DNA of 11,657 nt from a virus (IMGVR_UViG_2537562189_000011:1-11657); one strand, 5' to 3'; shown: positions 1 to 11,657, counted from the first letter of the stretch. Notes: generated by a model from the letters alone, not told the origin. Numbers and translations: made by a program.

Positions 1-441
1 TCATTCATCAGCGCCATACATCCAGTTATTGCGGTTAGCGGCCCGTTCTTCCTCCTCACGGAATCCACCCGCAGCACGCTTGTTTTTTGTGGACGGATCA
101 AGCCATTTCGTTTTCTGGTTATGACACGCCTGGCACAATGGCTGATGATTCCACTCAGGCCAGAAGAGAACATCATTACCGCCATCGATTGGGATAATGT
201 GATCCACCACCACGGCGGGCGTGTATATTCCTTTTTCCAGGCAATGCGCACATAACGGGTTTTTACTCAGATACATGGCGCGGTATTTCTCCCACTGCCT
301 CGTATACCCTCGCTCCCTGCTGCTGCCTCTCCGGCTGTCCTGCTGCTGGCGTGCGCTGCGTCTGTGCTCCTCACACTTGCCGGACTTCACGCGCCTGTTG
401 CAGCCTGGTTCTGTACATCGTCTTAATGGTTGCCACGGCAT
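1..441 (-). CDS. HNH endonuclease (packaging-associated)
   Basis: 146-aa ORF, ATG at 441-439, stop at 3-1. Cys-x2-Cys ... VVDHIIP ... N ... Cys-x2-CHNQK zinc-finger HNH motif. Start overlaps the stop of the upstream connector gene by 1 nt (TGATG). Confidence 0.85.
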   Translation of the reverse strand: MPWQPLRRCTEPGCNRRVKSGKCEEHRRSARQQQDSRRGSSRERGYTRQWEKYRAMYLSKNPLCAHCLEKGIYTPAVVVDHIIPIDGGNDVLFWPEWNHQPLCQACHNQKTKWLDPSTKNKRAAGGFREEEERAANRNNWMYGADE

Positions 442-737
442 CAGTACACCCCCACATCACGGTAAGCCGTCCAGAGTGCGCCAATCGTCATGGGTACGTG
501 TGTTTTTGCGTTATCCGCGACAATCTGGCGATTCTCATACAGGTGAGCGATAAACATCATGCAGCCAATCTTTATGGCTGGCGTGAACTCCAGCCCGTCA
601 TCAAAGCGCCTGCCTATGTGTATCTGGCACGCCTCAAGCGATGCGGCAATGTATCCGCTGATTAACTGGTCTTCCTCGTCTCCATCGATACGGCAATGGA
701 GTTTCACTTCTTCCAGGGTGATAAGTTCTTCTGTCAT
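441..737 (-). CDS. Head-tail connector protein (gp6-like)
   Basis: 98-aa ORF; N-terminus MTEELITLEEVKLHCRIDGDEEDQLISGYIAASLEACQ matches the conserved start of gp6-like connector proteins. ATGA overlap with the upstream gene. Confidence 0.75.
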   Translation of the reverse strand: MTEELITLEEVKLHCRIDGDEEDQLISGYIAASLEACQIHIGRRFDDGLEFTPAIKIGCMMFIAHLYENRQIVADNAKTHVPMTIGALWTAYRDVGVY

Positions 738-1072
738 TTTTCCGCGCCCTCACGACAAAGAATTTCAAGGCGTGTCCTGGCGACATCCGGCAACGGCTGC
801 CCGATGATATTCAGTACACGCCCCGCCAGCGGCCCCGTACTGACCTTTATCCGGCTGGTGGCGTTGATGTCCTTCCGGTACCGTATCCAGATCCTTACGG
901 TACCAATCGCCAGCTCTGCGCCCGATGAAATGGCCTCCTTGCTGCTGATCATGTTCACGCTTGCCCAGAGTGTGTGACCGTCCTCCCACGTTTCGAGTAT
1001 TTCGCCCGTCATGGCTCTGGTCTGTTTCAGGGTCTGAATCGTTATCCTGTCACGCAGTCGCCCTATGTTCAT
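734..1072 (-). CDS. Head closure / head-tail adaptor protein
   Basis: About 112 aa from ATG 1072-1070, which overlaps the portal stop as ATGA; an alternative ATG at 1114 would give 126 aa. MNIGRLRDRITIQ ... VRIWIRYRKDI pattern typical of head closure proteins. Confidence 0.65.
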   Translation of the reverse strand: MNIGRLRDRITIQTLKQTRAMTGEILETWEDGHTLWASVNMISSKEAISSGAELAIGTVRIWIRYRKDINATSRIKVSTGPLAGRVLNIIGQPLPDVARTRLEILCREGAEK

Positions 1073-2277
1073 TCCGGTTTTTCTCCCTCGCTGATTTTTA
1101 CTTCCTGTTTCCATGCCTGACTGAACTCATCACCACCATCACGCGGTGACAGTCCTTCACGTTCGCGGGCTTCGTTCGGGCACATAACGCCGGATTTGAT
1201 GCCGCGCTCATAGGTGGCAAAGCGTTCGCCAGGTGTGGCCCGTAACAGGTCCGCGCTGTCAAACTCCACCTGATACCGGATACCAGGTACAGGCGAGGCC
1301 ACCAGCAGGGCGTTTTTTATCTGCTGCTCAAAGTTCGCCAGCCACGGGCGCATCGTCATGGTGAGAAATGCGCGGCTTGCCTCGCTGAAATTGCTGTAGG
1401 TGCTGTTGCTGTATTCCTGCAAAAAAATCGGCGAGACGTTGAACATTCGGGCGATGTCTTCAATGGTAAAGCGACGGGAGGCCAGCCATTCAGCATCCTG
1501 ATTACTCATGCCCAGCTGCTGATAGCTCATCCCCCCTTCAAGGATGGGCGTTTTTCCGGCGTTTCTGGCCCCTTTGTAGCGTTCCAGTGCGGCTAATGCC
1601 TGTTTGCCCTTCACGCCGTCCAGCCATTCGCCTGACGTGATAACCCCTGCCGCCATCATGCCATCACGCATCACGCTCGCGCCGTGGCGTTGTTGGGCCA
1701 GCCCAAGCCCCAGCGATTCGCGGCAGATGGTTACAGGTGAGCGCCCCATAAAGCCGTCATCCGTGGAGTAACGAAGGTGAAGTACTTCCCACGGTAAATA
1801 GTTGTGGGTGTTTCCGGTGTAGGCGTCAGTGATGCAATAGCGCCAGTTGTGTTCGCCTGTCTGCTCCACGTTCACCGACTGCGGCGGGTAAGGATGTAAA
1901 GCCGCCGGAAAACCATCACGCCCCCACTGAATAACCGCATAAGCATTACCGTTTAACAGGCAGTGGCGGATCATCATTCGCTTAAACTGGTAGGGGGTTT
2001 GCCATGCGTTCGGGCGCTCGTTGAGGATGTGATCGACCGGATGAGAATCAAGCCACTCGCGGGCCTCCTTCCCCTTCTCATTGCGTACCAGGTACAGGTA
2101 GCATGGCATAGTAGCCACCGCCTCAGAGATGACCGTAACGGCGTTCATGACGGCAGGCAGTGATTCCGCTGTCCCCGATGATACGTACTCACCCGCCCCC
2201 GTGTTCGATGTGCCAGCCAGCGCCATAAATTCATCAAGCGTCATGCTGCGCTGCTCTTTTTTCTTCTGAAAGGCCAC
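1069..2277 (-). CDS. Portal protein (HK97 family)
   Basis: 402-aa ORF in the size range and position of HK97-type portals. GTG start at 2277 preceded by GGGGG; alternative ATG at 2244 (MTLDEF...). Lies 3 nt after the protease stop. Confidence 0.8.
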   Translation of the reverse strand: MAFQKKKEQRSMTLDEFMALAGTSNTGAGEYVSSGTAESLPAVMNAVTVISEAVATMPCYLYLVRNEKGKEAREWLDSHPVDHILNERPNAWQTPYQFKRMMIRHCLLNGNAYAVIQWGRDGFPAALHPYPPQSVNVEQTGEHNWRYCITDAYTGNTHNYLPWEVLHLRYSTDDGFMGRSPVTICRESLGLGLAQQRHGASVMRDGMMAAGVITSGEWLDGVKGKQALAALERYKGARNAGKTPILEGGMSYQQLGMSNQDAEWLASRRFTIEDIARMFNVSPIFLQEYSNSTYSNFSEASRAFLTMTMRPWLANFEQQIKNALLVASPVPGIRYQVEFDSADLLRATPGERFATYERGIKSGVMCPNEAREREGLSPRDGGDEFSQAWKQEVKISEGEKPE

Positions 2278-2280
2278 ATA

Positions 2281-2853
2281 TCACACCCCCGCTAAATCCA
2301 CCCACCAGCGGCGATTATCCGCACGCGGCATTTTTTCGGGGTGCTGCTCATACAGGGAACGGCGGGCCAGCTCCACGCCGGAATCGGGGTAAGCCGGTAC
2401 CGATGTAACGGTAATTTCGTACAGTTCCGCCACCAGCACGGTGCGCACGCATGGATCTGTTGTGGTATCCCATACATCCTTACGGGAGCGAAAGCCAAAG
2501 CTCATGCCGGATATATCACCACGTTTAACCAGTTCGATAACGTCGCGCCCTGTACTGGTATCCGGTGGGGTCAGTTCAAAGCGTAACCCTGTTTCATCCT
2601 CTTCCAGTTTCAGCGTGCCGGAACGGGTGCGCCCCAGTAACATACTGTGGTCATGCTCATACAGGCCGCGAACGTCATTACCCGCCGCAAGCCATTCAGT
2701 AAACGCCCCCCGCTGGAATTTTTCGTAAAACTCACCCCATAACAGTTCTGAAAGCTTATCCCAGCGAACAACGTAGCCTGTAAGCGTGTTGCTGCCGCTG
2801 GTGGTGATTTCCGATGACCGGATTTCCATACTCTTCATAATTTTTTCACCCAT
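2281..2853 (-). CDS. Prohead maturation protease (HK97 / S78 family)
   Basis: 190-aa ORF between the capsid and portal genes, with sequence character of HK97-type prohead proteases. Three in-frame ATGs at 2853, 2838 and 2829; 2838 has the best spacing to a GGTGA Shine-Dalgarno. Confidence 0.8.
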   Translation of the reverse strand: MGEKIMKSMEIRSSEITTSGSNTLTGYVVRWDKLSELLWGEFYEKFQRGAFTEWLAAGNDVRGLYEHDHSMLLGRTRSGTLKLEEDETGLRFELTPPDTSTGRDVIELVKRGDISGMSFGFRSRKDVWDTTTDPCVRTVLVAELYEITVTSVPAYPDSGVELARRSLYEQHPEKMPRADNRRWWVDLAGV

Positions 2854-2882
2854 AAAACACTAAAGGGGCTTTTAAGCCCCTT
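2852..2882 (-). terminator. Intergenic hairpin with U-tract between capsid and protease genes (candidate attenuator)
   Basis: AAGGGGCT (2863-2870), loop TTTA, AGCCCCTT (2875-2882). On the minus strand the stem is followed by UAGUGUUUUAU. Confidence 0.45.
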
Positions 2883-2892
2883 CTGTATGCTG

Positions 2893-4050
2893 TTAATCGT
2901 CGTCCTGTGGCAGTTCCAGAATCTTGATCGCGTTCGAATCCACCACGCCACCGCCTAAATATTTCTGCGTGAAAATTTTGATGAAGCCCGGCTCTGTGAG
3001 GTTGTCCGGTCTGGTGCGAACACCTGTTTCGTGATCAACAATGTAGTAACCGCGTTTGAAGTCACCCAGGGCAATAACGTTATCAGGCATAAACTCCAGA
3101 TATTCGACCGGAAGGCCCAGCAACGTATCAGGATCACCCGCCTGTAAACGGTCACGCCAGATGTAATCACCGTTCGCGTTCTTCACCTTCTGGAGTTTTG
3201 CCGCCGTCGTGGAGTTAACCACCCAGACCGCGTTTTTGCGGTATTTTTTACGTAATGCAAATTTCAGGTCGATCAGCGGGTCCGCAGATGTCCACGCCAG
3301 AGATTCGGAAGGTTTAATTACCTGCAACGTACCAAAATCACGCTCTTTGTCGTTCTTCTCTGCACGGGGTACGGATAAAAAGCCTTTTGCTTTTTTGTCA
3401 CCGTCGCCCACAACCAGATCGCTTTCTTCGGTTTCCGTGAAGGTGTCGCCAATCTCGCCCGTCAGCCATGAAAGGATGTCCACATCGGAAAAATCCACGA
3501 TTTCCTGTGTGGTGCGCGGGTACGCATAGACCGGATACAGCTTAATGCTCACCTCGTTAATCTGCGGGGTGCTGGTCTGTTCGCGTGCCTTACCCTCTTC
3601 ACCGTGGTTAACGGTCGCACCGCCAGCGGAAACAAGCTGCTTAAACTCGTTGCTGCTGATTTTTTTCACGGTACAGATGCGGCGCATGGTGGACTCATCC
3701 GCCAGCATTCGCATGATTTCGGTGTTCAGTTCGGGGATAACGGTATAACCACCATCAGCGGGAACGCCTGTACTTAATGCGCGGGTTTCACCTGTCAGAA
3801 TGTAGTTGCGGAGTTCTGCGGGGTCAGTGGTCTGACTGCTTTTACCTGGCTTGCTGCGCTCTTCGTCTGCAATGGCTTCAAGGCGGGAAATGTCTTTATC
3901 GAGGGATTCAGCTTTAGCGCGTAATTCGTCAAATTTTGCGCCCTCTGCATCGTTAAGGCTGCGGTTTTCTTTTTCCGCGTTCTCCAGCATGTCGCGCATC
4001 TGATTTTTAATGGCGGTTTTCTGCTGGCGTAATTCGATTATTCTCGGCAT
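2893..4050 (-). CDS. Major capsid protein (HK97 fold) with N-terminal scaffolding-like delta domain
   Basis: 385-aa ORF, ATG at 4050. The N-terminal ~100 aa is charged and coiled-coil-like (ELRQQKTAIKNQMRDMLENAEKENRSLNDAEGAKFDELRAKAESLDKDISRLEAIADEE), as in the delta domain of HK97-type capsid proteins; no separate scaffold gene is seen. Confidence 0.85.
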   Translation of the reverse strand: MPRIIELRQQKTAIKNQMRDMLENAEKENRSLNDAEGAKFDELRAKAESLDKDISRLEAIADEERSKPGKSSQTTDPAELRNYILTGETRALSTGVPADGGYTVIPELNTEIMRMLADESTMRRICTVKKISSNEFKQLVSAGGATVNHGEEGKAREQTSTPQINEVSIKLYPVYAYPRTTQEIVDFSDVDILSWLTGEIGDTFTETEESDLVVGDGDKKAKGFLSVPRAEKNDKERDFGTLQVIKPSESLAWTSADPLIDLKFALRKKYRKNAVWVVNSTTAAKLQKVKNANGDYIWRDRLQAGDPDTLLGLPVEYLEFMPDNVIALGDFKRGYYIVDHETGVRTRPDNLTEPGFIKIFTQKYLGGGVVDSNAIKILELPQDDD

Positions 4051-4140
4051 AAAAAAAGTACCTGGGTTAAGTAAGGAACTCCAGGACGCGGCAAAAACTC
4101 AACCGTTTTTCATAAGGAAATCAGCAATCGCACCGATCGT

Positions 4141-4246
4141 TTTCCCGCCTGGTAATGAATATTGGTGAGCACATTAACAGGCGGGAAAGTGGCCCCAGCG
4201 TCCTGGCACCACTGGCGAGAATAATCATGATTCAGGGCGGGTAAAA
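4141..4246. promoter_or_regulatory. Inverted and direct repeats of TTTCCCGCCTG upstream of the capsid operon (candidate regulator binding sites)
   Basis: TTTCCCGCCTG at 4141-4151 is the exact reverse complement of CAGGCGGGAAA at 4178-4188; an inner TAATG/CATTA pair (4153-4157 / 4172-4176) extends the palindrome. A related CAGGGCGGGTAAAA lies at 4233-4246. All are 90-200 bp upstream of the capsid start. Confidence 0.4.
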
Positions 4247-4291
4247 TATGCCGATCCGGTCAATGAACAACGTGGAACGACCACGAACAAA

Positions 4292-4330
4292 TAATTTACA
4301 AAAATTACAAAAAGCCGGATTTCTCCGGCT
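4292..4330 (-). terminator. Rho-independent terminator separating the replication/regulatory operon from the capsid operon
   Basis: Stem AGCCGGA (4313-4319), loop TTTC, TCCGGCT (4324-4330). On the minus strand it is followed by UUUUGUAAUUUUUGU, and it sits immediately 3' of the stop at 4337. Confidence 0.6.
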
Positions 4331-4336
4331 GTTTGA

Positions 4337-5029
4337 TTAGCTGTCCTGGTAATTGCGCCATATTTCATCACCAGCACCATCTATACCCATTTCGGCATAA
4401 GTGCGATCGACTGCCTTTTTCAGGTCTCCGAAATTATCCGGCGGCTCCGGTGCCCTCTGTGCCTTCCTTGAACATTCCAGCCGTCGCATCGTGATGTGAT
4501 GCCGTTCCTTGTCTGTCTCCACCAGCTGCATGACTTCACCCCATCGCGCCGCCGCCCTCCGGTAAAAGCCTTTCGCCTCCAGTTCCTCCGCTATGCGGTC
4601 ATGTACCATCGTCACCCCCTCAGAACGAAATATCATCACCGTAAGGGTCATCGCTCCCGCTGGTGGCTGATTACCCTGTGTGCCTGTGGTTTTGCGTCTG
4701 TTCCCGCCAGGAAGTGCCGCACGGGCACTGATTACGCTGTCTGCAATAACCTGATAACCCTGCCGCGTTTCCCCATTCTGTCCGGTCCACTGGCTGACCT
4801 GCATCGTGCCGGATACGCTGGCAACGTCGCCTTTTTGATGTTTAGCCAGGAAGTCGGCCTGCTTACCAAATGCGATGACCGATAGCCATAACGTCGCCTG
4901 CCCATCCTGCGCCTGACTACATGGCAGCGATACCGCCATACGCGCCAGCGTCATCGGTGTACCCTTGCTGGTCTGTTTTACCTGCTGGTCGTCCACCAGC
5001 CGCCCGTAAGCCGCTATCTGTGCTGTCAT
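4337..5029 (-). CDS. Two-domain protein: N-terminal SSB-like OB fold, Gly/Pro/Gln linker, C-terminal PerC-like small-regulator domain
   Basis: 230-aa ORF, ATG at 5029 overlapping the upstream stop (ATGA). Residues 1-105 follow the SSB OB-fold pattern (GRL..D..V ... TLW.SVI.FGK.A.F..K..KGD ... WT...G..R). The C-terminal ~90 aa carries AEELEAKGFYRRAAARW, recalled from PerC-type regulators. An internal ATG at 4609 has a strong GAGGGGG Shine-Dalgarno 5 nt upstream. Confidence 0.55.
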   Translation of the reverse strand: MTAQIAAYGRLVDDQQVKQTSKGTPMTLARMAVSLPCSQAQDGQATLWLSVIAFGKQADFLAKHQKGDVASVSGTMQVSQWTGQNGETRQGYQVIADSVISARAALPGGNRRKTTGTQGNQPPAGAMTLTVMIFRSEGVTMVHDRIAEELEAKGFYRRAAARWGEVMQLVETDKERHHITMRRLECSRKAQRAPEPPDNFGDLKKAVDRTYAEMGIDGAGDEIWRNYQDS

Positions 5030-5277
5030 GCCGTCTGCTCTCCGGTTTTAACGTTGATGGTTGTTACCTGTTCCGCTTCGGCAATCTCCCGTTCTGTCAA
5101 CGTGGCAAAGTTTGCCGCTGCTGTGGTCATGAATGCGCTTATCAGTTCGGGATGCTCCTTCGCGTATCCTTCCCCCGCGTGGCGGTCTATCGTCCTGATT
5201 GCCACCTTTAAGGCCAGTTCAGCCATATCTAACGCCTTATATTTCGGCTCTGTTCTGTCTCTGCGTTTTTGGGTCAT
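5026..5277 (-). CDS. Hypothetical protein (about 83 aa), translationally coupled to the SSB-like gene
   Basis: The ORF track extends to a TTG at 5334 (102 aa), but that extension is encoded by the iteron repeats. ATG at 5277 (MTQKRRDRTEP...) has a GAGAGG Shine-Dalgarno; a further ATG lies at 5226. No recognised domain. Confidence 0.45.
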   Translation of the reverse strand: MTQKRRDRTEPKYKALDMAELALKVAIRTIDRHAGEGYAKEHPELISAFMTTAAANFATLTEREIAEAEQVTTINVKTGEQTA

Positions 5278-5288
5278 TTCTCGCAACC

Positions 5289-5479
5289 TCTCACTTTTTC
5301 GCCTCACTTTTTCAAGCGTCTCACTTCGTCGCAATTGGGATTTTTGGTTTTTCTATGTGTGTGTTTCATAAGTATTTTTTTACCCCTCACTTTTGAGGAT
5401 GTATACAGGTAGAAAAGTGAGGGAGAGCAGGCTAATTTTGGCCCTCTTTCTATCCACCTCGCTTTTGCTCCTCACTTTT
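5289..5479. repeat. Iteron cluster (CTCACTTTT) flanking an AT-rich segment; candidate replication origin
   Basis: Perfect copies at 5290-5298, 5304-5312, 5387-5395 and 5471-5479, one inverted copy (AAAAGTGAG, 5413-5421), and degenerate copies at 5320-5328 (CTCACTTCG) and 5459-5467 (CTCGCTTTT). AT-rich core at 5331-5384. Lies immediately 3' of the helicase gene. Confidence 0.6.
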
Positions 5480-6459
5480 ATAGCGGCGCTACATCATCCC
5501 CATCGATACGAATAACCCCATCTTTTTCCAGCTTGTACAGCCAGCGCCGGAAGTTTTTCATTTCATACCCCAGCTTTTTCATGTCATCACGTAACAGCGG
5601 GATCGTGCACTTGTCGCCGTTCTGTGTGCGTGAACGGATGCACCCCCATAGCGCGGTATGGTTTTCCGTCTTGTTCCCTGCCTCCTCGATGCGCTCCAGT
5701 TCAACGGGAGGGCGCGGCTTATCCACCACCACCAGCGACGTGATTAATTCACCGTCAGCGTCGGTAAAAAGCTCCACCACGCGTAAGTCATATGCGGCTT
5801 CTTTGAGTTCCTCCGCGTCCTTCATTTTGGTGCATGAGATAACCAGCGCTTCGCCTCCTGCGTCCTCCCTGCGTATCCGGTATTCAGCATCCAGCGAAGC
5901 ACGAAATGCACTGGAACCGCGCGCGCCTTTCGCTCATCCTTGCCGGAATGGTGAACCACCAGCACCGTGGCCCCTGTGCGTCGATTCAGTTCGTCACAAC
6001 CACGGATAAACGCCCCCATATCACGGGAATCATTTCATCATTCCCACCAAGGCAACGCGCCAGCGTATCCAGAATAATCATGCGTACAGGTTTACCCGTT
6101 TCCCGCTCCACCTGACGGGCAGCGATAACCATTTCATCAACATCAAGCGGGGCAGCCGGAAAGATGGGGCGGTTTACCAGATACAGATTTTTCACCTGCT
6201 CATCGTGCACAACCTCCCAGGCTTTTACACGACGCGGAACACCTATACCGCCTTCACCAACCACATAGAGAACCGCACCATGTGCAACCCTGCGGCCTCC
6301 CCACTGGCGACCAGTGGCAACATGGCACGCCCACGATCCGGCAAGGAATGATTTATAGGACCCGCTAGCCCCGTATATGCTGCATAGCGATACCGCCGGA
6401 ATAATCCCCTTAACCACGTAATCCAGTTGCGTGTCGTATCCGGTAGATCCAACGCTCAT
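5478..6459 (-). pseudogene. Replication helicase (AAA_25 / RepA-like) disrupted by two frameshifts
   Basis: Three consecutive minus-strand ORFs in three frames together form one helicase-like protein: Walker A GASGSYKS and Walker B MIILDTL (6459-5986), GATVLVVHHSGKD (6019-5822), C-terminal domain (5825-5478). Reading continuity needs about +1 nt near 6033-6035 and -2 nt in the CCGCGCGCGCC tract at 5917-5927, which restores ...HHSGKDERKARGSSAFRASLD.... Confidence 0.7.
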
Positions 6460-6875
6460 CGGTAGCGTGGTTTTTCGCTGGTGGTTTTTTCTTCCGCCGG
6501 CTCTTTCCCGCGCACCCGTTCCAGGTATTCGCGCCAGTTCTCCCGCATATGGCTGTGCATCCCTTCGGGGTAATAATTCGCATCAGTTACACCCGCCGCC
6601 GCCAGTTTGTGCGCAATGGCATTAATATTTGATGGCCTGATGTGGCCTGCCTTGTACAGCCGGACACAATAGCGCCCCTCGTCGATGATTCTCAGGTCTG
6701 CCAGTTCATCCAGTTGATCATCAGCCAGCACAACGGGAGGCACATTATCGCCAGCCAGTCGCCCGTCCTGTTCCTGCCACTGTTTCGCATGTGCCCAGGC
6801 ATCACTACCCGCAAAAATAATGACTTCGGTCATCTTGTCGTAAGGCTGTTTTTTTAAGTTCGGTGCGCTTTTCAT
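6456..6875 (-). CDS. Hypothetical protein (139 aa), coupled upstream partner of the helicase gene
   Basis: ATG at 6875 with AGGGG Shine-Dalgarno; ATGA overlaps with both the upstream gene and the helicase start. No confident domain assignment. Confidence 0.55.
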   Translation of the reverse strand: MKSAPNLKKQPYDKMTEVIIFAGSDAWAHAKQWQEQDGRLAGDNVPPVVLADDQLDELADLRIIDEGRYCVRLYKAGHIRPSNINAIAHKLAAAGVTDANYYPEGMHSHMRENWREYLERVRGKEPAEEKTTSEKPRYR

Positions 6876-7171
6876 TTCTTGCCCCTGAATCCGTTAATCA
6901 TGGTTTTCAGCTTCTGGATGTTTGCACGTGCCCTGGCGTTGCTGGTGGGCACGTTATGCGGCGCGGTCTGTACCAGAGAAAAATCACGCCGGAACTGATA
7001 AACAGGCATCACGCAATCATATTCGTAACCTTCACGGCGGTAAGTTACGCACCGTCCCGCCACGCCCTTAATCATTACCGTGCCGCCGTACTGGTCGCGG
7101 TAAATATCACCGCGCGTAAATTTAGGGTGAGTGTTGCCACTGGCAGTTAAGCCAGAATATTTAAGTTTCAT
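6872..7171 (-). CDS. Hypothetical protein (99 aa), first gene of the replication operon
   Basis: ATG at 7171 with a GGAGA upstream; ATGA overlap with the next gene; preceded by a 230-bp AT-rich intergenic region. No recognised domain. Confidence 0.5.
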   Translation of the reverse strand: MKLKYSGLTASGNTHPKFTRGDIYRDQYGGTVMIKGVAGRCVTYRREGYEYDCVMPVYQFRRDFSLVQTAPHNVPTSNARARANIQKLKTMINGFRGKK

Positions 7172-7403
7172 TATTTTTATTCTCCGGTGTGCTGTTCGTT
7201 ATATCTGTCGTGCAATGTCTCTATTTCCTGCAACACATTTATTACAGGCTCAAGAAGCGTTATTAATGATGTAATAATCCGCGTTTTTTTTGCTATTACG
7301 TTCATTATCGCCAAAGGATTCAAGGCACATCCGCAATATTTCCATCATATTTTCACTGTGAGAAAGTGCAAGAAATACGCGATCTGTTGTTTCGTGGTAA
7401 ATA

Positions 7404-7637
7404 TCACGCATGGCTTACATCCTCAGGAAATTTTCTTCTGTAACGAGCCTCTGCCACATATTCCGCATAATCGGCGGCGATATTCAGTACATCAAGCCCC
7501 GTTGATTTATATTCTCTCGTGGAAAGTAAGAAAAAAGCCGCTCTAATAAGTTCTGGCATTGACGAAAGCGCATCAGCCGCATCATCAGGAACGCCGGAAA
7601 ATTCCTGTTTCAGGGAATTAAAACGATCATCACGCAT
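7404..7637 (-). CDS. Hypothetical protein (77 aa); possibly the C-terminal half of a gene split at a homopolymer tract
   Basis: ATG at 7637 sits immediately 3' of a G9 run (C9 on the plus strand, 7640-7648). One extra G would fuse it in frame to the upstream ORF. Confidence 0.4.
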   Translation of the reverse strand: MRDDRFNSLKQEFSGVPDDAADALSSMPELIRAAFFLLSTREYKSTGLDVLNIAADYAEYVAEARYRRKFPEDVSHA

Positions 7638-7870
7638 AACCCCCCCCCATTTTCACAATCAGCAATCAGGATAGCTTTGGCCTCATTCAGCGCCGTATCA
7701 GCACTAAATTGCATGACAGCCAGTGAGTGAGGAACGAAAGCACCGGCATATTCTGTTTCGCTGGTGGCGTGCTTATGTGCCCTGTCCGCGATAACAGAAA
7801 TATCAATCAGCGCGTGCATCAGCGTTTTGATGGCTTCGGCGGCTGCGTCCGGTGTGGTTTTATTGTGCAT
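7610..7870 (-). CDS. Hypothetical protein (86 aa); possibly the N-terminal half of a gene split at a homopolymer tract
   Basis: ATG at 7870; the reading frame runs through the G9 tract (ENGGG) and stops 27 nt later. Confidence 0.4.
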   Translation of the reverse strand: MHNKTTPDAAAEAIKTLMHALIDISVIADRAHKHATSETEYAGAFVPHSLAVMQFSADTALNEAKAILIADCENGGGLCVMIVLIP

Positions 7871-8072
7871 AAAGCATCCCCTGAATATTCGTGTTAATCA
7901 TTCCGGCACGTTTTGTGATTTCCTGTAATGATTCCCTTGTGGCGACAATTGCTTCATCTGGTAAGTGGTAATTACACACCACGCGACCTTTATCCACATT
8001 GACCAGTAGCTGCCCTGTGAATTTCTCACGAAACTGAATGCGGTTAAGGTCAGTAAGTGACAGATTAATCAT
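7860..8072 (-). CDS. Hypothetical small protein (70 aa)
   Basis: ATG at 8072 preceded by a strong AGGAGG Shine-Dalgarno at 6-nt spacing; the ORF track's longer version starts at a GTG at 8114. Start overlaps the stop of the upstream gene. Confidence 0.5.
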   Translation of the reverse strand: MINLSLTDLNRIQFREKFTGQLLVNVDKGRVVCNYHLPDEAIVATRESLQEITKRAGMINTNIQGMLYAQ

Positions 8073-8262
8073 AGCGCACCTCCTGACGAATACGGGCGGC
8101 AAATACAGCAACACAACCTGACGGGCAACGGCTATGCGCTTCGCGTTCCGTCCAGGCGGTTACGTGGATGATTTGAGATTCTCCGGCACTCAGTGCCAGA
8201 AAACGCCACACAAAGGCCGTTTGTGTGTGTACAAGGTGTGGGGTATGATTTACGGCAACCAT
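8065..8262 (-). CDS. Hypothetical small protein (65 aa)
   Basis: ATG at 8262 preceded by GAGGAG at 5-nt spacing; the ORF track's longer version starts at a GTG at 8361. No recognised domain. Confidence 0.5.
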   Translation of the reverse strand: MVAVNHTPHLVHTQTAFVWRFLALSAGESQIIHVTAWTEREAHSRCPSGCVAVFAARIRQEVRYD

Positions 8263-8351
8263 AACGGCTCCTCGTTTACGTTGTTGGTTAGAAGCCCTGC
8301 GAGTGGTAATGACACTTGCGGGGCTTTGCTTTTTTAAGTGCTCTTGTGTTA

Positions 8352-8397
8352 AGGTGGTCACCTAACAATAGAAAGGCTAATTCAATAGGTGACCACT
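8352..8397. promoter_or_regulatory. Operator-like inverted repeat pair (GGTGGTCACC / GGTGACCAC) in the divergent intergenic region
   Basis: GGTGGTCACC at 8353-8362 and its near reverse complement GGTGACCAC at 8388-8396, centres 35 bp apart, between the minus-strand gene starting at 8262 and the plus-strand gene starting at 8457. Confidence 0.45.
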
Positions 8398-8456
8398 TGT
8401 CAACAATCAAACGCGATAAAAGCCCTAAAGGGGACGGGCAATCCCCACAATTCAGA

Positions 8457-8588
8457 ATGCGAATTTCTCCAGAGCTAAAAGAGCAATTCGATAAAGAAGC
8501 ACAGAGCGACGGCATAAGCCTAGCCAACTGGCTTAAAGAGTTGGGGCGCACTGAACTAAAGCGGCGCGGTATAGAACCCAAAGGATAA
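8457..8588 (+). CDS. Ribbon-helix-helix (Arc/CopG-like) DNA-binding protein, copy 1 (43 aa)
   Basis: MRISPELKEQFDKEAQSDGISLANWLKELGRTELKRRG fits the strand-helix-helix pattern of ribbon-helix-helix regulators (Arc/CopG-like). Nested in the 90-aa ORF-track ORF 8316-8588; Shine-Dalgarno is weak. Confidence 0.45.
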   Translation: MRISPELKEQFDKEAQSDGISLANWLKELGRTELKRRGIEPKG

Positions 8589-8590
8589 AA

Positions 8591-8637
8591 ACTATCAGCG
8601 CCGTGGTGTGAGGTACTACGGCGCATTGCTTTACAGG
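8591..8637 (+). repeat. 47-bp conserved hairpin element, copy 1
   Basis: ACTATCAGCGCCGTGGTGTGAGGTACTACGGCGCATTGCTTTACAGG, 46 of 47 identical to 9332-9378. Contains a GCGCCGT / ACGGCGC stem (extendable to 11 bp with G-U pairs). Begins 2 nt after the stop codon and ends 8 nt before the next ATG. Confidence 0.7.
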
Positions 8638-8645
8638 GCAGTACC

Positions 8646-8873
8646 ATGACCAACAACACACTATCACCAATACAAGACACGCAAACGCAAGATGATGAAA
8701 TCATCCGGCAAAGGCAGTCAGAAGCCTGCGCCAGACTTGAGGAAGAACTAACCAGAACAAAAATACCACCACCAGCGCCGCGCTTAGTGCCACCAGAAAA
8801 ATTTGCCCTTGAAGATTTTGTCGATAAATACCCACGGCGGCTTAAATCCGGCAAAAACCGACCGCCAGGATGA
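8646..8873 (+). CDS. Hypothetical small protein (75 aa), MTNN... N-terminus
   Basis: ATG 8 nt after the 47-bp element. The first ~50 nt are homologous to the start of the ORF at 9387. No recognised domain. Confidence 0.4.
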   Translation: MTNNTLSPIQDTQTQDDEIIRQRQSEACARLEEELTRTKIPPPAPRLVPPEKFALEDFVDKYPRRLKSGKNRPPG

Positions 8874-8892
8874 GTGCACAAAACCGAACTAT

Positions 8893-8930
8893 GAAACGGA
8901 TTATTCCGTTTCCGGGGCGTTTGTGTGTGT
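8893..8930 (+). terminator. Candidate terminator hairpin after the first plus-strand gene pair
   Basis: GAAACGGA (8893-8900), loop TTAT, TCCGTTTC (8905-8912), followed by CGGGGCGTTTGTGTGTGT. The T-tract is interrupted, so this is weak. A second hairpin ACGCCCCG / CGGGGCGT (8993-9026) is followed by TTGTTGTTTTGGG. Confidence 0.3.
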
Positions 8931-9036
8931 ATAAAGAGTAAGCTATGCTCTTTTATAGCCATAATCGTTACCTCAATTAATGGTTTGGTTAGACGCCCCG
9001 TATGTGTTCCCATCACTGCGGGGCGTTGTTGTTTTG

Positions 9037-9129
9037 GGTGTATTTCACCTTCATTTTTAAATCTACATTCAGGTGAAATACACCGCAAGACTTTTTTTAT
9101 CTTTTTTTTTGCGTATACTGAAATACACC
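9037..9129 (+). promoter_or_regulatory. Promoter/operator region of the second ribbon-helix-helix gene: GGTG-N5-CACC inverted repeats plus a TATACT -10
   Basis: GGTGTATTTCACC at 9037-9049 and its reverse complement GGTGAAATACACC at 9072-9084 (centres 35 bp apart); a third half-site TGAAATACACC at 9119-9129 overlaps a TATACT at 9114-9119; T-rich stretch at 9091-9110; AGGAG Shine-Dalgarno at 9137-9141. Confidence 0.5.
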
Positions 9130-9149
9130 GATTATCAGGAGAACCAGAA

Positions 9150-9329
9150 ATGGCAACAGGTGCAAAGAACGCAAAATCACAAATGACAACGGTCAGAATC
9201 CCGCATGAGGTAATGACCGATATTGAGCAACTTAAAGAACCTGGCGAAAGTACCGCCGGATTTCTAGTTACGGCAGCAAAAGGCGAGATCAAACGCCGCC
9301 AGCGCCGCAAGGCCAAAGAATCAGAATAA
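9150..9329 (+). CDS. Ribbon-helix-helix (Arc/CopG-like) DNA-binding protein, copy 2 (59 aa)
   Basis: ATG at 9150 with CAGGAG Shine-Dalgarno at 8-nt spacing. TTVRIPHEVMTDIEQLKEPGESTAGFLVTAAKGEIKRR fits the ribbon-helix-helix pattern. Nested in the 134-aa ORF-track ORF 8925-9329. Confidence 0.55.
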   Translation: MATGAKNAKSQMTTVRIPHEVMTDIEQLKEPGESTAGFLVTAAKGEIKRRQRRKAKESE

Positions 9330-9331
9330 TT

Positions 9332-9378
9332 ACTATCAGCGCCGTGGCGTGAGGTACTACGGCGCATTGCTTTACAGG
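9332..9378 (+). repeat. 47-bp conserved hairpin element, copy 2
   Basis: ACTATCAGCGCCGTGGCGTGAGGTACTACGGCGCATTGCTTTACAGG; same placement as copy 1 (2 nt after the stop, 8 nt before the next ATG). Confidence 0.7.
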
Positions 9379-9386
9379 TACACACA

Positions 9387-9536
9387 ATGACCAATAAAGA
9401 ATCAACCAATACACCATCGCAAAAAACGAACAGAGAGCACGAAAATATGGCGCTCGAGCATGAATCAGAAAGATTCGCTCCATGCGCTTTTGTCCTTGAT
9501 GAGTTTCTAAAAAATATTCACGTTCTGAACGGATGA
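9387..9536 (+). CDS. Hypothetical small protein (49 aa), MTNK... N-terminus; not in the ORF track
   Basis: ATG at 9387 to TGA at 9534-9536, translated by hand: MTNKESTNTPSQKTNREHENMALEHESERFAPCAFVLDEFLKNIHVLNG. Position and first codons parallel the ORF at 8646. Confidence 0.3.
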   Translation: MTNKESTNTPSQKTNREHENMALEHESERFAPCAFVLDEFLKNIHVLNG

Positions 9537-9657
9537 AAATGGCAGCACAATACGGCCCCAACAAGCAAGGTAATTGCCCACCAGCCTGATCACGGTTATC
9601 ATGTTCGGGCTTATGATTGTTGACACATACGGCGCAGCGGGTTAATTGTTCAGAAAG

Positions 9658-9684
9658 GCGGTTCCATATCGGGACCGCTTTTTT
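9658..9684 (+). terminator. Rho-independent terminator closing the plus-strand regulatory cassette
   Basis: Stem GCGGTTCC (9658-9665), loop ATATC, GGGACCGC (9671-9678; 8 bp including one G-U), followed by TTTTTT (9679-9684). Confidence 0.6.
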
Positions 9685-9864
9685 ATGCCTGAAAATACCC
9701 TATAGCATGGCTTTTCAGATTCACCAGGGCGAACGAATCCCCGCCCCTGTACGGGCGTATATTTCATCATGGTTATACCTCAGTATTATGGCGTTTATTC
9801 CCGATACCGAGATCCCGGTATCGGTCAATAATGGATTGGTGGTGGCTGTGTGCCGCCAGTCTTT

Positions 9865-10053
9865 TTAGTGAACTGCCTTGCAGCTATCCTTCCAGGCCAA
9901 AACCTCAGATAAAGACCAGCCAACAGAACGCCCGCCAAGTTTACGACGTGATGGGAATTGTCCGGCCTTTTCCAGGCGGTAGCGGCATGAGCGGCTAAGG
10001 CCTGTTAGCTTTTCGCATTCTTTTTCACGTATAAACCGATCAGTGCTTAACAC
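9865..10053 (-). CDS. alpA: AlpA-family phage regulatory protein (small HTH regulator)
   Basis: 62 aa; RFIREKECEKLTGLSRSCRYRLEKAGQFPSRRKLGGRSVGWSLSEVLAWK matches the AlpA helix-turn-helix signature. GTG start at 10053 with AAGGGGG Shine-Dalgarno 5 nt upstream. Confidence 0.85.
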   Translation of the reverse strand: MLSTDRFIREKECEKLTGLSRSCRYRLEKAGQFPSRRKLGGRSVGWSLSEVLAWKDSCKAVH

Positions 10054-10427
10054 TATTGCCCCCTTTCGTTTCTTAAAGAGTTATTTCGTGTTCTATTGCG
10101 TTGGGATGTGTCTGATTGTGTCAGGATGATTCAGAGTTGGCAAATGTTGGTGTCGCATGGTTTACAGAAAGAGGAATAATCAGGATAAAATCATTTAAAT
10201 TCATGTTAATACAAAGGCATAAAATCTTGTTTTATGCTTTTTTTCGCACGCTTTAACGCGTAATTCACTAATGTATAAAAAACCAGCTGATCATTAAAAA
10301 TCAGTAACTTATAAATCTGTATTCTTTTTGGCCTCTTGTTCGTGATTGTGTCACGTTGTTGCACATTGTTTCACGTTGTATCTGTGCACTTATCCAGTAT
10401 GCGCATACTGAAAAAACACGAGAAAAA

Positions 10428-11657
10428 TTATTTTATTCTGGTTACTGGTAGCGTGGTTACGTTTTCATGTGTTCCCGCCAGTATCTCCAACCGCTCCACC
10501 CACATATCAAGCGCATTGCGTTTCGCATCAATATAGCGGGAATGGTTGTACACGCGTTGCATTCCTAGCATCTGGTGGCCTGTAAGCTGCTCCACGACGT
10601 GAGGATCAACGCCTAAATCGTTCAGCATGGTTGTAAAGGTGCGCCGGATGTCATGCAGTGACCAGTGAGGGTGTTTAAGCCTCCTGTGCACCAATCTGCC
10701 GTACTGCGATACGCTGGTTTCCTGTTTCACTTCCCCCAGCAATAAGCCCGTGTGCCTGTTCTGCTCCACCAGCTGCGTGACGAACGGCAGTATCGCTTCC
10801 GGTATGGGCCGGAATATGGCTACCTTCGTTTTGCTGTGCTCCTTCGGAACGGTCCAGAGCATTTCGGTAAAATCCCACTCGCCGATCTCCGATAACCTCA
10901 GTTCTACTGTCCGGCATCCGAAAACAATCAGGAGGCGGATTAGTGCGACGTAGTAAGGGGAAAATATTTTTTTGTCCAGTGCCTGCAATAATTCGCCAAG
11001 TTCTTTGTTACTTAAGACACGCTCACTTATATCCGGTTTTTTCCCAACGTCCGCCACACTCATATCATCAAGAACGTTGCTGATTGCATAGCGCCGCTTC
11101 CTGCAGAACTTAAGCGCCTGCTTGCATGTCTGTAGCAGGAACCCGGCGGAAACAGGGGCTTTCTTTGCCACCCGATCAAAACAGGCCAGCCAGTGCCGTA
11201 GCTCGCATTTATCCAGCGGCATAGGGCCAATGTGCTGTATTACGTGATTATTTAGCCGCTTTTTCAGTGGGTCATAATCCACACGGTTTTCCTTTGCGTA
11301 CGACTCAAGCCAGTAGGTGAGCGCATCGCCAACCGTTACCGGCTTTAACGCTTCCTGTACGGTGTAATTCATTTCATGACGTGGATTTTTCCCCTCTGCC
11401 AGCCATGCGCGACACTGGGCGGCTTTTTCCCTGGCTGATTTCAGGCTCAGATCAGGATAATTTCCCAGCTTAATGCGTTCCGGTGGTGCCCCCCTTCCCG
11501 TTCCGGCCCTGTAAGTGAAATACCAGGTTAAAAGGCCACTGGTTGAATGCCTGACGCTCAGGTTTCCACCGTCATTAAGAAAGGCTGTTTTTTGGGCGGG
11601 TGTGCCGTTGATTTTCCTCAGCTGGGTATCGCTCAGTTTGTTAAGTGCTCTGCTCAT
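10428..11657 (-). CDS. int: Tyrosine integrase, P4-type (site-specific recombinase)
   Basis: 409-aa ORF, ATG exactly at the window end (11657-11655), TAA at 10430-10428. N-terminal arm-binding-like domain (GLLTWYFTYRAGTGRG..RIKLGNYPDLSLKSAREKA) and a C-terminal catalytic domain with HxxR and a terminal Tyr region as expected for tyrosine recombinases. Confidence 0.9.
   Translation of the reverse strand: MSRALNKLSDTQLRKINGTPAQKTAFLNDGGNLSVRHSTSGLLTWYFTYRAGTGRGAPPERIKLGNYPDLSLKSAREKAAQCRAWLAEGKNPRHEMNYTVQEALKPVTVGDALTYWLESYAKENRVDYDPLKKRLNNHVIQHIGPMPLDKCELRHWLACFDRVAKKAPVSAGFLLQTCKQALKFCRKRRYAISNVLDDMSVADVGKKPDISERVLSNKELGELLQALDKKIFSPYYVALIRLLIVFGCRTVELRLSEIGEWDFTEMLWTVPKEHSKTKVAIFRPIPEAILPFVTQLVEQNRHTGLLLGEVKQETSVSQYGRLVHRRLKHPHWSLHDIRRTFTTMLNDLGVDPHVVEQLTGHQMLGMQRVYNHSRYIDAKRNALDMWVERLEILAGTHENVTTLPVTRIK

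What the first reader, a model, noticed from the sequence alone, without database searches (positions are those of the whole stretch)
1..11657. Whole window is a compact integrase-AlpA-replicon-capsid cassette: a capsid-forming phage satellite (cf-PICI-like), not a prophage fragment
An HK97-type head module (capsid, protease, portal, closure, connector, HNH) sits about 300 bp downstream of a small replicon (helicase plus iterons) and about 6 kb from a P4-type integrase and AlpA, all co-directional. There is no room for the early, lysis or tail regions an ordinary prophage would have. Satellites that encode their own capsid and packaging genes and take only tails from a helper phage are a recently recognised class, and this locus has that hallmark content. 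The element also carries unassigned small genes and a duplicated regulatory cassette that differ between relatives in such islands.
Basis: partly seen in the sequence, partly recalled or inferred. Interest (0 to 1): 0.8.

Follow-up and report, generated by a model that had tools for sequence, protein, structure and literature searches.

The report
Known capsid-forming phage satellite (EcCIEDL933 family)

Summary
On the minus strand the window encodes a P4-type integrase, AlpA, an Icd-like protein, small ORFs, DUF4222, a RepA-type helicase followed by iterons, SSB, PerC, then an HK97-type capsid, prohead protease, portal, head closure, head-tail adaptor and HNH.

The window is an exact piece of E. 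coli 1.2264 contig AEZO02000023.1, which ends 195 nt past HNH. The element sits between roxA and phoQ, the same site as EcCIEDL933, the experimentally characterised prototype cf-PICI. The head module is 97.3% identical in DNA to that prototype, and the capsid is 99.5% identical to the protein solved as PDB 9GYI.

Complete relatives continue with a small ORF, terS, terL and another small ORF, then attR. They are about 15.5 kb and carry no tail or lysis genes.

Differences from the prototype are modular. The replication module is swapped (RepA helicase with AAAGTGAGG iterons instead of a DUF927 primase-helicase with TAACCCGCA iterons). There is also a second opposite-strand ribbon-helix-helix cassette.

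In this record repA is split by three one-base deletions and ssb is fused to perC, more likely assembly or sequencing errors than real decay, but this is unresolved.

One feature is unexplained: a conserved stop-free reading frame antisense to the regulatory cassettes.

The parts
10428..11657 (-). P4-type tyrosine integrase, 409 aa
   Evidence: Pfam Arm-DNA-bind_3, Phage_int_M and Phage_integrase. 95% identical to the EcCIEDL933 integrase and 99.8% to that of STEC2017-197 at the same site.
10336..10375 (.). Four tandem 10-bp units (TTGTTNCACG type) between int and alpA; candidate binding array for AlpA/excisionase or Int
   Evidence: (D6). The same decamers occur in tandem in both att arms and upstream of the capsid gene. 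In L014 all 7 matches in 25 kb fall in these four control regions. The function is inferred.
9865..10053 (-). alpA, activator of the satellite cycle, 62 aa
   Evidence: Pfam Phage_AlpA 5e-18. 98% identical to EcCIEDL933 AlpA. An alpA mutation abolishes induction and transfer of the prototype (10.1101/2022.09.08.507074).
9150..9536 (+). Cassette B: YlcI/YnfO-family ribbon-helix-helix gene (9150-9329) plus a small ORF (9387-9536, cut short by a 1-nt deletion at 9514; 67 aa in L009)
   Evidence: NCBIfam YlcI_YnfO_N 3.8e-17; PHROG 949. The codon-position substitution pattern supports + strand coding. Truncation seen.
8316..8873 (+). Cassette A: Arc/HicB-like ribbon-helix-helix ORF (ends 8588, start uncertain) plus a 75-aa ORF (8646-8873)
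   Evidence: PHROG Arc-like repressor 4.2e-7; Pfam HicB 9e-4. PGAP names the homologues YlcI/YnfO family in L001 and L014.
8288..9409 (-). Stop-free frame on the gene strand, antisense to both cassettes: 373 codons here, 497 in the cleaner copies L009/L010
   Evidence: None of 5000 shuffles reaches 300 codons, and the feature is conserved in all 10 variants examined. Its meaning is unexplained.
8065..8262 (-). Icd-like small protein, 65 aa
   Evidence: NCBIfam phage_ICD_like 6.9e-17.
7250..8072 (-). Four small ORFs of unknown function: 7860-8072, 7610-7870, 7404-7637 and 7250-7411 (the last truncated by an inserted base at 7294)
   Evidence: PHROGs 340, 2512/5146, 2512/24341 and 2196, all of unknown function. 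No Pfam or PADLOC hit.
6872..7171 (-). DUF4222 protein, 99 aa, directly upstream of rep
   Evidence: Pfam DUF4222 2.1e-23. It holds the same position in every relative.
5478..6875 (-). RepA-family replicative helicase (466 aa when intact), split here into four ORFs by 1-nt deletions at 6490, 6035 and 5932
   Evidence: Pfam AAA_25. The intact 466-aa version in L009 matches PHROG 2850 at 7e-267 and helicase/primase families. Indels listed.
5289..5478 (.). Putative replication origin: seven AAAGTGAG(G) iterons around an AT-rich core (5340-5380)
   Evidence: The iteron sequence changes with the Rep type in relatives. Origin function is inferred from the usual PICI rep-ori layout.
5026..5277 (-). 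83-aa ORF of unknown function
   Evidence: PHROG 1231 2.4e-51.
4337..5029 (-). ssb (about 4620-5029) and perC (4337-4609), fused into one 230-aa ORF by a 1-nt deletion at 4654
   Evidence: Pfam SSB 2.7e-15 and PerC 4.3e-42 in one ORF. They are separate genes of 136 and 90 aa in L009 and other relatives.
4261..4330 (-). Terminator-like hairpin after perC (4313-4330), followed by a TTGTTNCACG-type decamer array (4261-4290) upstream of the head operon
   Evidence: (I1).
2893..4050 (-). HK97-fold major capsid protein, 385 aa
   Evidence: Pfam Phage_capsid 1.6e-61. Matches PDB 9GYI, the EcCIEDL933 T=4 capsid, at E 1.4e-255. 99.5% identical to the EDL933 copy.
2281..2853 (-). Prohead serine protease, 190 aa
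   Evidence: Pfam Peptidase_S78 4e-48; PHROG 80.
1069..2277 (-). Portal protein; the first few codons are altered by a 1-nt deletion at 2262
   Evidence: Pfam Phage_portal 2.3e-90.
734..1072 (-). Head closure protein, 112 aa
   Evidence: Pfam Phage_HCP 1.1e-22; PHROG 25 head closure Hc1. 100% identical to EcCIEDL933.
441..737 (-). Head-tail adaptor/connector, 98 aa
   Evidence: Pfam Phage_connect_1 3.2e-12; PHROG 40 adaptor Ad1. 99% identical to EcCIEDL933.
1..441 (-). HNH endonuclease of the packaging module, 146 aa
   Evidence: Pfam HNH 9.4e-8; PHROG 144 4.4e-43. 100% identical to L014 and 88% to EcCIEDL933.

Best explanation
The window is the integrase-to-HNH part (11.66 of about 15.5 kb) of a capsid-forming phage-inducible chromosomal island. 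It is integrated between roxA and the 3' end of phoQ in E. coli 1.2264 and is an allelic variant of the prototype EcCIEDL933.

Mechanism, taken from experiments on the prototype:
- A helper siphophage switches on alpA.
- AlpA drives excision, replication and expression of the island's own head and packaging operon.
- The island builds its own small T=4 HK97-fold capsids.
- It packages its own DNA with its own HNH, TerS and TerL.
- It takes only tails from the phage.

Shown here by computation: gene content, order, orthology to the prototype, insertion site, absence of tail and lysis genes in complete relatives, and a Rep-specific iteron cluster.

Inferred:
- The iteron cluster is the origin of replication.
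- This copy uses HK106-type tails, because its portal, closure and adaptor proteins are 99-100% identical to the prototype's.
- The TTGTTNCACG arrays are AlpA or Int binding sites.
- terS and terL follow HNH in this strain as they do in relatives.
For: - Domain assignments for every core gene.
- The window is the exact reverse complement of L008 3373-15029 (GCA_000194415.2, contig AEZO02000023.1), next to roxA, pepT and potA.
- EcCIEDL933 was located in EDL933 between roxA and phoQ. Against it, blastn identity is 97.3% over window 1-4335, and the head proteins are 98-100% identical except HNH at 88%.
- The capsid matches PDB 9GYI at 1.4e-255, and 9GYI is the EcCIEDL933 capsid.
- Comparison with the empty K-12 site gives an att core GGACATATTT at both ends of the EDL933 element. 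The same left junction is present in the source contig, 181 nt beyond window position 11657.
- Complete relatives L001, L014, L016 and L002-L007 all run int...HNH, 60-aa ORF, terS (Terminase_4), terL, 93-aa ORF and then host genes, with no tail or holin genes.
- True phages share at most about 40% capsid identity. The only closer 'phage' records are 3.8-16.5 kb records plus one capsid at the end of a 106-kb record, at 58-66%.
- Experimental basis for the mechanism: 10.1101/2022.09.08.507074 and 10.1101/2025.02.11.637232.
Against: - terS, terL and attR of this particular copy are not visible, because the contig ends 195 nt after HNH.
- As recorded, repA carries three frameshifts, ssb is fused to perC, and the portal start and two small ORFs are altered. 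If these changes are real, this copy could not replicate autonomously.
- No induction or transfer data exist for this strain, and no helper phage is identified for it.
Confidence: 0.93

Rival explanations
1. It belongs to the same family but is a decaying, immobile copy. On this reading the three repA frameshifts, the ssb-perC fusion and the truncated small ORFs are real mutations, so this island can no longer replicate after induction.
For: - Against the near-identical element L009, the window shows 12 one-base indels and 10 substitutions in 11.2 kb, while the adjacent 3372 nt of host DNA are 100% identical.
- Only 5 of the 12 indels lie in runs of 7 or more identical bases. Several are in short runs or in none (5932, 7294, 4654).
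Against: - An indel-to-substitution ratio above 1 is unusual for natural divergence. That judgement rests on my own knowledge and was not tested here.
- Ten of the 12 indels are missing bases, and 5 of the 16 runs of 7 or more in the element are affected. The host flank has no such run, so its cleanness is partly expected.
- The assembly is a draft that breaks just after HNH, as expected for a multi-copy repeat whose reads get mixed.
- The head genes stay intact.
Confidence: 0.3
2. It is a remnant of an HK97-like temperate prophage that lost its tail, lysis and early regions by deletion.
For: The head and packaging genes are phage-derived families. Int and AlpA also occur in prophages.
Against: - The same compact gene set, about 15.5 kb in the two elements whose ends were mapped here (L001, L016), recurs with precise ends at several different insertion sites: tqsA, roxA/phoQ and next to clpS.
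- It is orthologous to an element shown experimentally to be a mobile satellite.
- The capsid is at most about 40% identical to capsids of true phages.
- The left half (int, alpA, rep, ori) is PICI-type, not lambdoid.
Confidence: 0.03
3. It is a P4-like satellite, or a P4/PICI hybrid that remodels helper capsids.
For: It has a P4-type integrase, an AlpA/Vis-type regulator and an Icd-like gene.
Against: No Psu, Sid or Delta homologue appears among the ORFs. It encodes its own capsid, portal and protease, and in relatives its own terminase, which P4 lacks.
Confidence: 0.02

Closest known systems
EcCIEDL933, the prototype cf-PICI of E. coli O157:H7 EDL933 (L016 about 8150-23617)
   Same: - Same attB (roxA-phoQ) and the same att core, GGACATATTT.
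- Same gene order.
- Packaging module 97.3% identical in DNA.
- Protein identity: capsid 99.5%, protease 98.4%, portal 99%, closure 100%, adaptor 99%, AlpA 98%, Int 95%, SSB 98%.
   Different: - The rep-ori module is replaced: a RepA AAA_25 helicase with AAAGTGAGG iterons here, against a DUF927 primase-helicase with TAACCCGCA iterons in the prototype.
- There are two opposite-strand ribbon-helix-helix cassettes instead of one.
- The small ORFs between icd and DUF4222 differ.
- The 74-aa ORF between perC and the capsid gene is absent here.
- HNH is only 88% identical.
Unnamed cf-PICIs of E. coli STEC2017-197 (L014, same site), E. coli strain 10 (L001, inserted in tqsA) and GCA_037352345.1 (L009, same site, 99.8% identical)
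   Same: - RepA-type replicon with the same iterons.
- Both ribbon-helix-helix cassettes are present.
- The head genes are identical or nearly so.
- L014 and L001 show the complete right end: terS, terL and attR.
   Different: These copies have an intact repA and separate ssb and perC genes. Cassette A is diverged or replaced in L014 and L001.
Classical Gram-negative PICIs (EcCICFT073, EcCIED1a)
   Same: [quoted passage not shown]
   Different: Classical PICIs lack portal, adaptor, connector and terL and use helper-phage capsid proteins.
Phage HK97 and the helper phage HK106
   Same: HK97-fold capsid with protease-dependent maturation, and HNH-TerS-TerL packaging.
   Different: - Sequence identity is low.
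- The capsid is T=4 instead of T=7.
- No covalent crosslinks stabilise the capsid.
- There are no tail, lysis or lambdoid early genes.

Membership tests
cf-PICI (Alqurainy et al. 2022; SatelliteFinder cfPICI model, 11 core components) | Integrase at one end | tested here: met
   Pfam Arm-DNA-bind_3 and Phage_integrase, window 10428-11657.
cf-PICI | AlpA (or MerR/Stl) regulator next to int | tested here: met
   Phage_AlpA 5e-18, window 9865-10053.
cf-PICI | Primase/replicase with an adjacent origin | tested here: met
   RepA-family helicase at 5478-6875 with an iteron cluster at 5289-5478, and the iterons co-vary with the Rep type. Caveat: three frameshifts in this record.
cf-PICI | Own major capsid protein and prohead protease | tested here: met
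   Phage_capsid 1.6e-61 and Peptidase_S78 4e-48. The capsid matches PDB 9GYI at 1.4e-255.
cf-PICI | [quoted passage not shown] | tested here: met
   Phage_portal, Phage_HCP and Phage_connect_1. PHROG categories portal, Hc1 and Ad1.
cf-PICI | HNH endonuclease in the packaging module | tested here: met
   HNH at window 1-441.
cf-PICI | Own small and large terminase (terS, terL) | tested here: inconclusive
   Not in the window, and the source contig ends 195 nt past HNH. Both are present directly after HNH in every complete relative.
cf-PICI | No tail or holin genes inside the element (forbidden components) | tested here: met
   No window ORF hits a tail or lysis family. There are none between the att sites in L001, L014 or L016. 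The last 4 kb or so of this copy are unseen.
cf-PICI | Discrete att-bounded island of about 15 kb | tested here: inconclusive
   The left junction with core GGACATATTT is found in the source contig. The right junction is not available for this strain. EDL933 shows both junctions, about 15.47 kb apart. In L014 the element also lies between roxA and phoQ and the core is seen at its phoQ end.
cf-PICI | Helper-phage induction, island-made small capsids, and transfer that needs only phage tails | not testable with these tools
   Shown experimentally for the orthologous EcCIEDL933, not for this copy.
P4-like satellite | Psu, Sid and Delta capsid-remodelling and transactivation genes, plus an alpha primase | tested here: not met
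   No such family appears among the Pfam, NCBIfam or PHROG hits of any ORF.
Temperate HK97-like or lambdoid prophage | Tail, lysis and immunity/early modules inside the same att sites | tested here: not met
   Absent from the window and from complete relatives.

The most novel reading that the evidence does not exclude
The 1.0-1.8 kb stretch between alpA and icd may be a previously undescribed control region. Three features point that way:
- The gene strand is kept free of stop codons across the whole interval in every variant examined, although the genes with family support lie on the opposite strand.
- A conserved hairpin followed by a T-run sits upstream of each opposite-strand ribbon-helix-helix gene, about 30 nt from the icd start.
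- The amino-acid sequence of the long frame does not look conserved or protein-like.

One reading is that ribosome transit through this 'bridge' frame is what is selected. It could protect the alpA-to-rep transcript from Rho-dependent termination, by analogy with the icd leader of phage P1, which I recall from memory. The antisense cassettes and hairpins would then act as the switch.
Probability: 0.15. Interest if true: 0.5.

Novelty: already known. Interest (0 to 1): 0.18.

Why it matters
cf-PICIs matter because they make their own capsids and borrow tails, which lets them move DNA between species. That was established on EcCIEDL933, and this locus adds only another modular variant: a swapped rep-ori module and a second regulatory cassette.

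The practical values are:
1. Annotation. This is a satellite, not a defective prophage. The 230-aa 'PerC' and the split helicase in this record are more likely artefacts than real, though this is not settled.
2. Leads on regulation that the published work does not cover: the decamer arrays, the arm repeats, and the conserved antisense stop-free frame.

Tried and rejected
- **tRNA scan.** No tRNA gene is present. The element does not use a tRNA site.
- **21-bp direct repeat as att core.** CGGTGTAGTTAATGGTGTAGT, found near both ends, was my first candidate for the att core. Comparison with the empty K-12 site rejected it: the true junctions lie about 95-135 nt further out, at GGACATATTT. The 21-mer is internal to both arms.
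- **Rfam.** Only one sub-threshold hit (BSnc120, 29 bits against a gathering score of 114), taken as chance. There was no C4/CI-type RNA.
- **PADLOC.** No defence system; one weak Cas8g hit on a 67-aa ORF (E 6e-4) was dismissed.
- **Pfam and PADLOC on the 494-aa antisense ORF and the 247-aa EDL933 ORF.** Nothing found.
- **Enrichment of TTGTTNCACG.** With one mismatch allowed, the total count is not above shuffles. Only the positions and the tandem phasing are informative.
- **Promoter scan.** Not enriched over shuffles.
- **Frameshifts: error or real.** The host flank has no indels, but it also has no runs of 7 or more identical bases, so the test is inconclusive.
- **Rest of the element in strain 1.2264.** I could not reach the terS/terL/attR contig with the look-ups allowed.

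Full report
**What is in the window**

All major genes lie on the minus strand. In transcription order they are:
- P4-type integrase (10428-11657) and AlpA (9865-10053);
- an Icd-like protein (8065-8262) and four small ORFs of unknown function;
- a DUF4222 protein (6872-7171);
- a RepA-family helicase region (5478-6875), then an 83-aa ORF;
- SSB and PerC (4337-5029);
- after a 286-nt gap, the major capsid (2893-4050), prohead protease (2281-2853), portal (1069-2277), head closure (734-1072), head-tail adaptor (441-737) and HNH (1-441).

Pfam, NCBIfam and PHROGs all agree on these assignments, and no ORF falls into a tail or lysis family. There is no tRNA gene. Two small corrections apply: the 'duplicated regulatory cassette' is on the opposite strand, and the helicase is split into four ORFs in this record.

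**Source and surroundings**

The window is the exact reverse complement of positions 3373-15029 of locus L008, which is contig AEZO02000023.1 of assembly GCA_000194415.2, E. coli 1.2264. The contig ends 195 nt beyond HNH, so terS, terL and the right end of this copy cannot be seen. On the integrase side the neighbours are roxA, pepT and potA.

**Identity with the prototype**

I located EcCIEDL933, the prototype capsid-forming PICI, in the EDL933 chromosome. It lies between roxA and phoQ, the same locus as the window's element.

Comparison with the empty K-12 site places the junctions at a shared core, GGACATATTT, abutting the phoQ stop codon. The EDL933 element is about 15.47 kb, matching the published 15.4 kb. 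The same left junction is present in the source contig, 181 nt beyond window position 11657.

The window matches EcCIEDL933 at 97.3% DNA identity over positions 1-4335. Protein identities are capsid 99.5%, protease 98.4%, portal 99%, head closure 100%, adaptor 99%, SSB 98%, AlpA 98%, integrase 95% and HNH 88%. The capsid matches PDB 9GYI at E 1.4e-255, and 9GYI is the cryo-EM model of the T=4 EcCIEDL933 capsid.

**Complete relatives**

Three elements were examined in full:
- E. coli STEC2017-197 (L014), at the same site;
- E. coli strain 10 (L001), inserted in tqsA;
- EDL933 (L016).

After HNH each continues with a 60-aa ORF, a P27-family terS, terL and a 93-aa ORF, followed by host DNA. None has tail, tape-measure, holin or endolysin genes. 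Five further loci show the same layout at several insertion sites.

Related sequence is found in 1867 of 5426 complete E. coli genomes. Against the phage collection, genuine phages reach only about 33-40% capsid identity. The four closer records, at 58-66%, are three short records of 3.8-16.5 kb and one match at the end of a 106-kb Klebsiella phage record. The two of 15-16.5 kb are probably satellites deposited as phages.

This meets the published definition of the family. Nine of the 11 SatelliteFinder core components are in the window, the other two are outside it but present in all relatives, and the forbidden components are absent.

**Mechanism**

The mechanism is taken from experiments on the orthologous prototype:
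- Helper phages HK106 and HK446 induce the island through alpA.
- Mutations in the island's capsid, protease, portal, connector, HNH, terS or terL genes abolish island transfer but not phage transfer.
- Helper tail mutants abolish both.
- The island makes small capsids on its own.
- Tail-less capsids can later pick up tails from other phages.

The portal, closure and adaptor proteins here are 99-100% identical to the prototype's, so I infer the same tail compatibility.

**Differences from the prototype**

1. *Replicon.* EcCIEDL933 has a DUF927 primase-helicase. This element has a RepA (AAA_25) helicase. Directly 3' of each rep gene is an iteron cluster around an AT-rich core, and the iteron sequence changes with the Rep type:
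   - AAAGTGAG(G), 6-7 copies, for RepA;
   - TAACCCGCA, 9 copies, for DUF927;
   - GGTAGACA or GGTGAACAG for two D5_N types.
2. *alpA-icd interval.* Here it holds two tandem opposite-strand cassettes, each a ribbon-helix-helix gene followed by a small ORF. Cassette B's gene is YlcI/YnfO family (3.8e-17) and cassette A's is Arc/HicB-like. The cassettes share only a 75-nt and a 50-nt conserved segment. EDL933 carries one cassette. Other relatives carry one or two, with replacements.
3. *Smaller differences.* The 74-aa ORF between perC and the capsid gene is absent here. HNH is of a different allele.

**State of this copy**

Against L009, a near-identical element at the same site, the window has 10 substitutions and 12 one-base indels in 11.2 kb. 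Ten of the indels are missing bases, and five of them are in runs of seven or more identical bases. Their effects are:
- repA is split by deletions at 6490, 6035 and 5932;
- ssb is fused to perC by a deletion at 4654;
- the portal start is altered at 2262;
- two small ORFs are truncated at 9514 and 7294.

The flanking 3372 nt of host DNA are identical to L009, but they contain no run of seven or more, so that control is weak.

I judge assembly or sequencing error more likely, at roughly 70%. The reasons are the indel-to-substitution ratio, the bias towards missing bases, and a draft contig that breaks inside a multi-copy repeat. Real decay is not excluded.

**Regulatory sequence features (inferred functions)**

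TTGTTNCACG-type decamers occur in tandem with 10-bp phasing at four places:
- the attL arm;
- between int and alpA (window 10336-10375, in inverted orientation);
- upstream of the capsid gene (4261-4290);
- the attR arm.

In L014 all seven matches in 25 kb fall in these four regions. They are plausible sites for AlpA acting as excision factor and regulator, or for Int. A tandem GGTGTAGTTAAT repeat lies inside both arms and is a candidate arm-type Int site.

**An unexplained feature**

On the gene strand, the alpA-icd interval is free of stop codons over 373 codons in the window and 497 codons in the cleaner copies L009 and L010.
- None of 5000 dinucleotide shuffles reaches 300 codons.
- Shuffling codons within the four opposite-strand genes leaves the frame open in only 0.3% of trials. 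Shuffling the gaps between them never does.
- In all ten sequence variants examined, with Icd identity down to 45%, the interval is fully tiled by overlapping open frames of 88 to 498 codons, at least one of them 240 codons or longer in every variant.
- Databases hold over 900 such ORFs. Some are called as 550-604-aa 'Icd-like' proteins, which I read as in-frame fusions with icd.

The predicted product is rich in Ser, Leu, Arg and Cys and has no family hit. Substitution patterns favour the small opposite-strand genes as the selected coding sequences, and the gaps show no codon periodicity.

A conserved hairpin with a T-run precedes each ribbon-helix-helix gene, with two covarying pairs among seven variants. 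I leave the frame as unexplained, with a speculative translation-dependent anti-termination reading.

**Verdict**

Novelty is 'already known' and interest is low. The leads above concern regulation of the family, not the identity of this locus.

Noticed in passing
window 8288-9409 (-); L009 11879-13369; L010 10119-11603: A conserved stop-free frame on the gene strand, antisense to the ribbon-helix-helix cassettes. It tiles the whole alpA-icd interval in all 10 variants examined. It is far beyond chance (0 of 5000 shuffles), yet shows no protein-like conservation and no family hit.
   Followed up: partly
window 8291-8335 and about 8990-9040 (+): A conserved hairpin followed by a T-run upstream of each opposite-strand ribbon-helix-helix gene. 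Cassette A's copy lies about 30 nt from the icd start on the other strand. Two covarying pairs are seen in 7 variants. It could be an attenuator or the end of a short antisense RNA.
   Followed up: partly
window 8582-8656 and 9323-9397 (+): A 75-nt segment, 85% identical between the two cassettes, lying between each ribbon-helix-helix gene and the following small ORF. It contains the hairpin GCGCCGTGG...CTACGGCGC.
   Followed up: no
window 10336-10375 and 4261-4290; L016 8241-8260 and 23479-23498: Tandem 10-bp TTGTTNCACG-type units at four control regions: both att arms, the int-alpA spacer and upstream of the capsid gene. They are candidate AlpA/excisionase or Int sites.
   Followed up: partly
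L016 8283-8303 and 23511-23531; L008 3326-3346 (47 nt beyond window position 11657): A 21-bp direct repeat, CGGTGTAGTTAATGGTGTAGT (a tandem of GGTGTAGTTAAT), about 95-135 nt inside each end of the element. It is not the att core and is a candidate arm-type integrase site.
   Followed up: partly
window 9684, 9514, 7294, 6490, 6035, 5932, 4654, 4304, 4063-4057, 2262: Twelve one-base indels relative to the 99.8%-identical element L009, mostly missing bases in homopolymer runs. They split repA, fuse ssb to perC (deposited as a 230-aa 'transcriptional activator PerC', EIH22577.1) and truncate small ORFs.
   Followed up: partly
window 5289-5478; L016 14171-14470; L002, L004, L005 and L007 just 3' of rep: The iteron sequence co-varies with the Rep protein type across relatives. 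Four different rep-ori modules sit in otherwise similar islands.
   Followed up: yes
L016 22745-23182 (outside the window, between the last ORF and attR of EcCIEDL933): An array of about 5-7 copies of a roughly 48-nt unit (…GGTAACTGGTTGATATTTTCG… followed by a short hairpin) in the 850-nt non-coding tail of the island. Its function is unknown.
   Followed up: no
phage collection records LR881103.1 (16,548 bp) and OR544139.1 (15,321 bp); also OR850982.1 (3,794 bp) and PQ569648.1 (106,503 bp): The only 'phage' records with 58-66% capsid identity. The two of 15-16.5 kb are satellite-sized and are probably cf-PICIs deposited as phages. One other is a 3.8-kb fragment, and the last is a match at the end of a 106-kb Klebsiella phage record.
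   Followed up: no
window 2893-4050: After 9GYI, the closest solved structures are the capsid proteins of the Rhodobacter capsulatus gene transfer agent (6TB9/6TBA, E about 1e-46).
   Followed up: no
window 4141-4157 / 4172-4188 and 2862-2883: A 17-nt inverted repeat (94% complementary, 14-nt spacer) about 90-140 nt upstream of the capsid start, and a GC-rich hairpin between the capsid and protease genes.
   Followed up: no
window 1-441: HNH is only 88% identical to the EcCIEDL933 HNH, while the flanking head genes are 98-100% identical. It is 100% identical to HNH of L014 and L001, which points to a mosaic boundary inside the packaging module.
   Followed up: no
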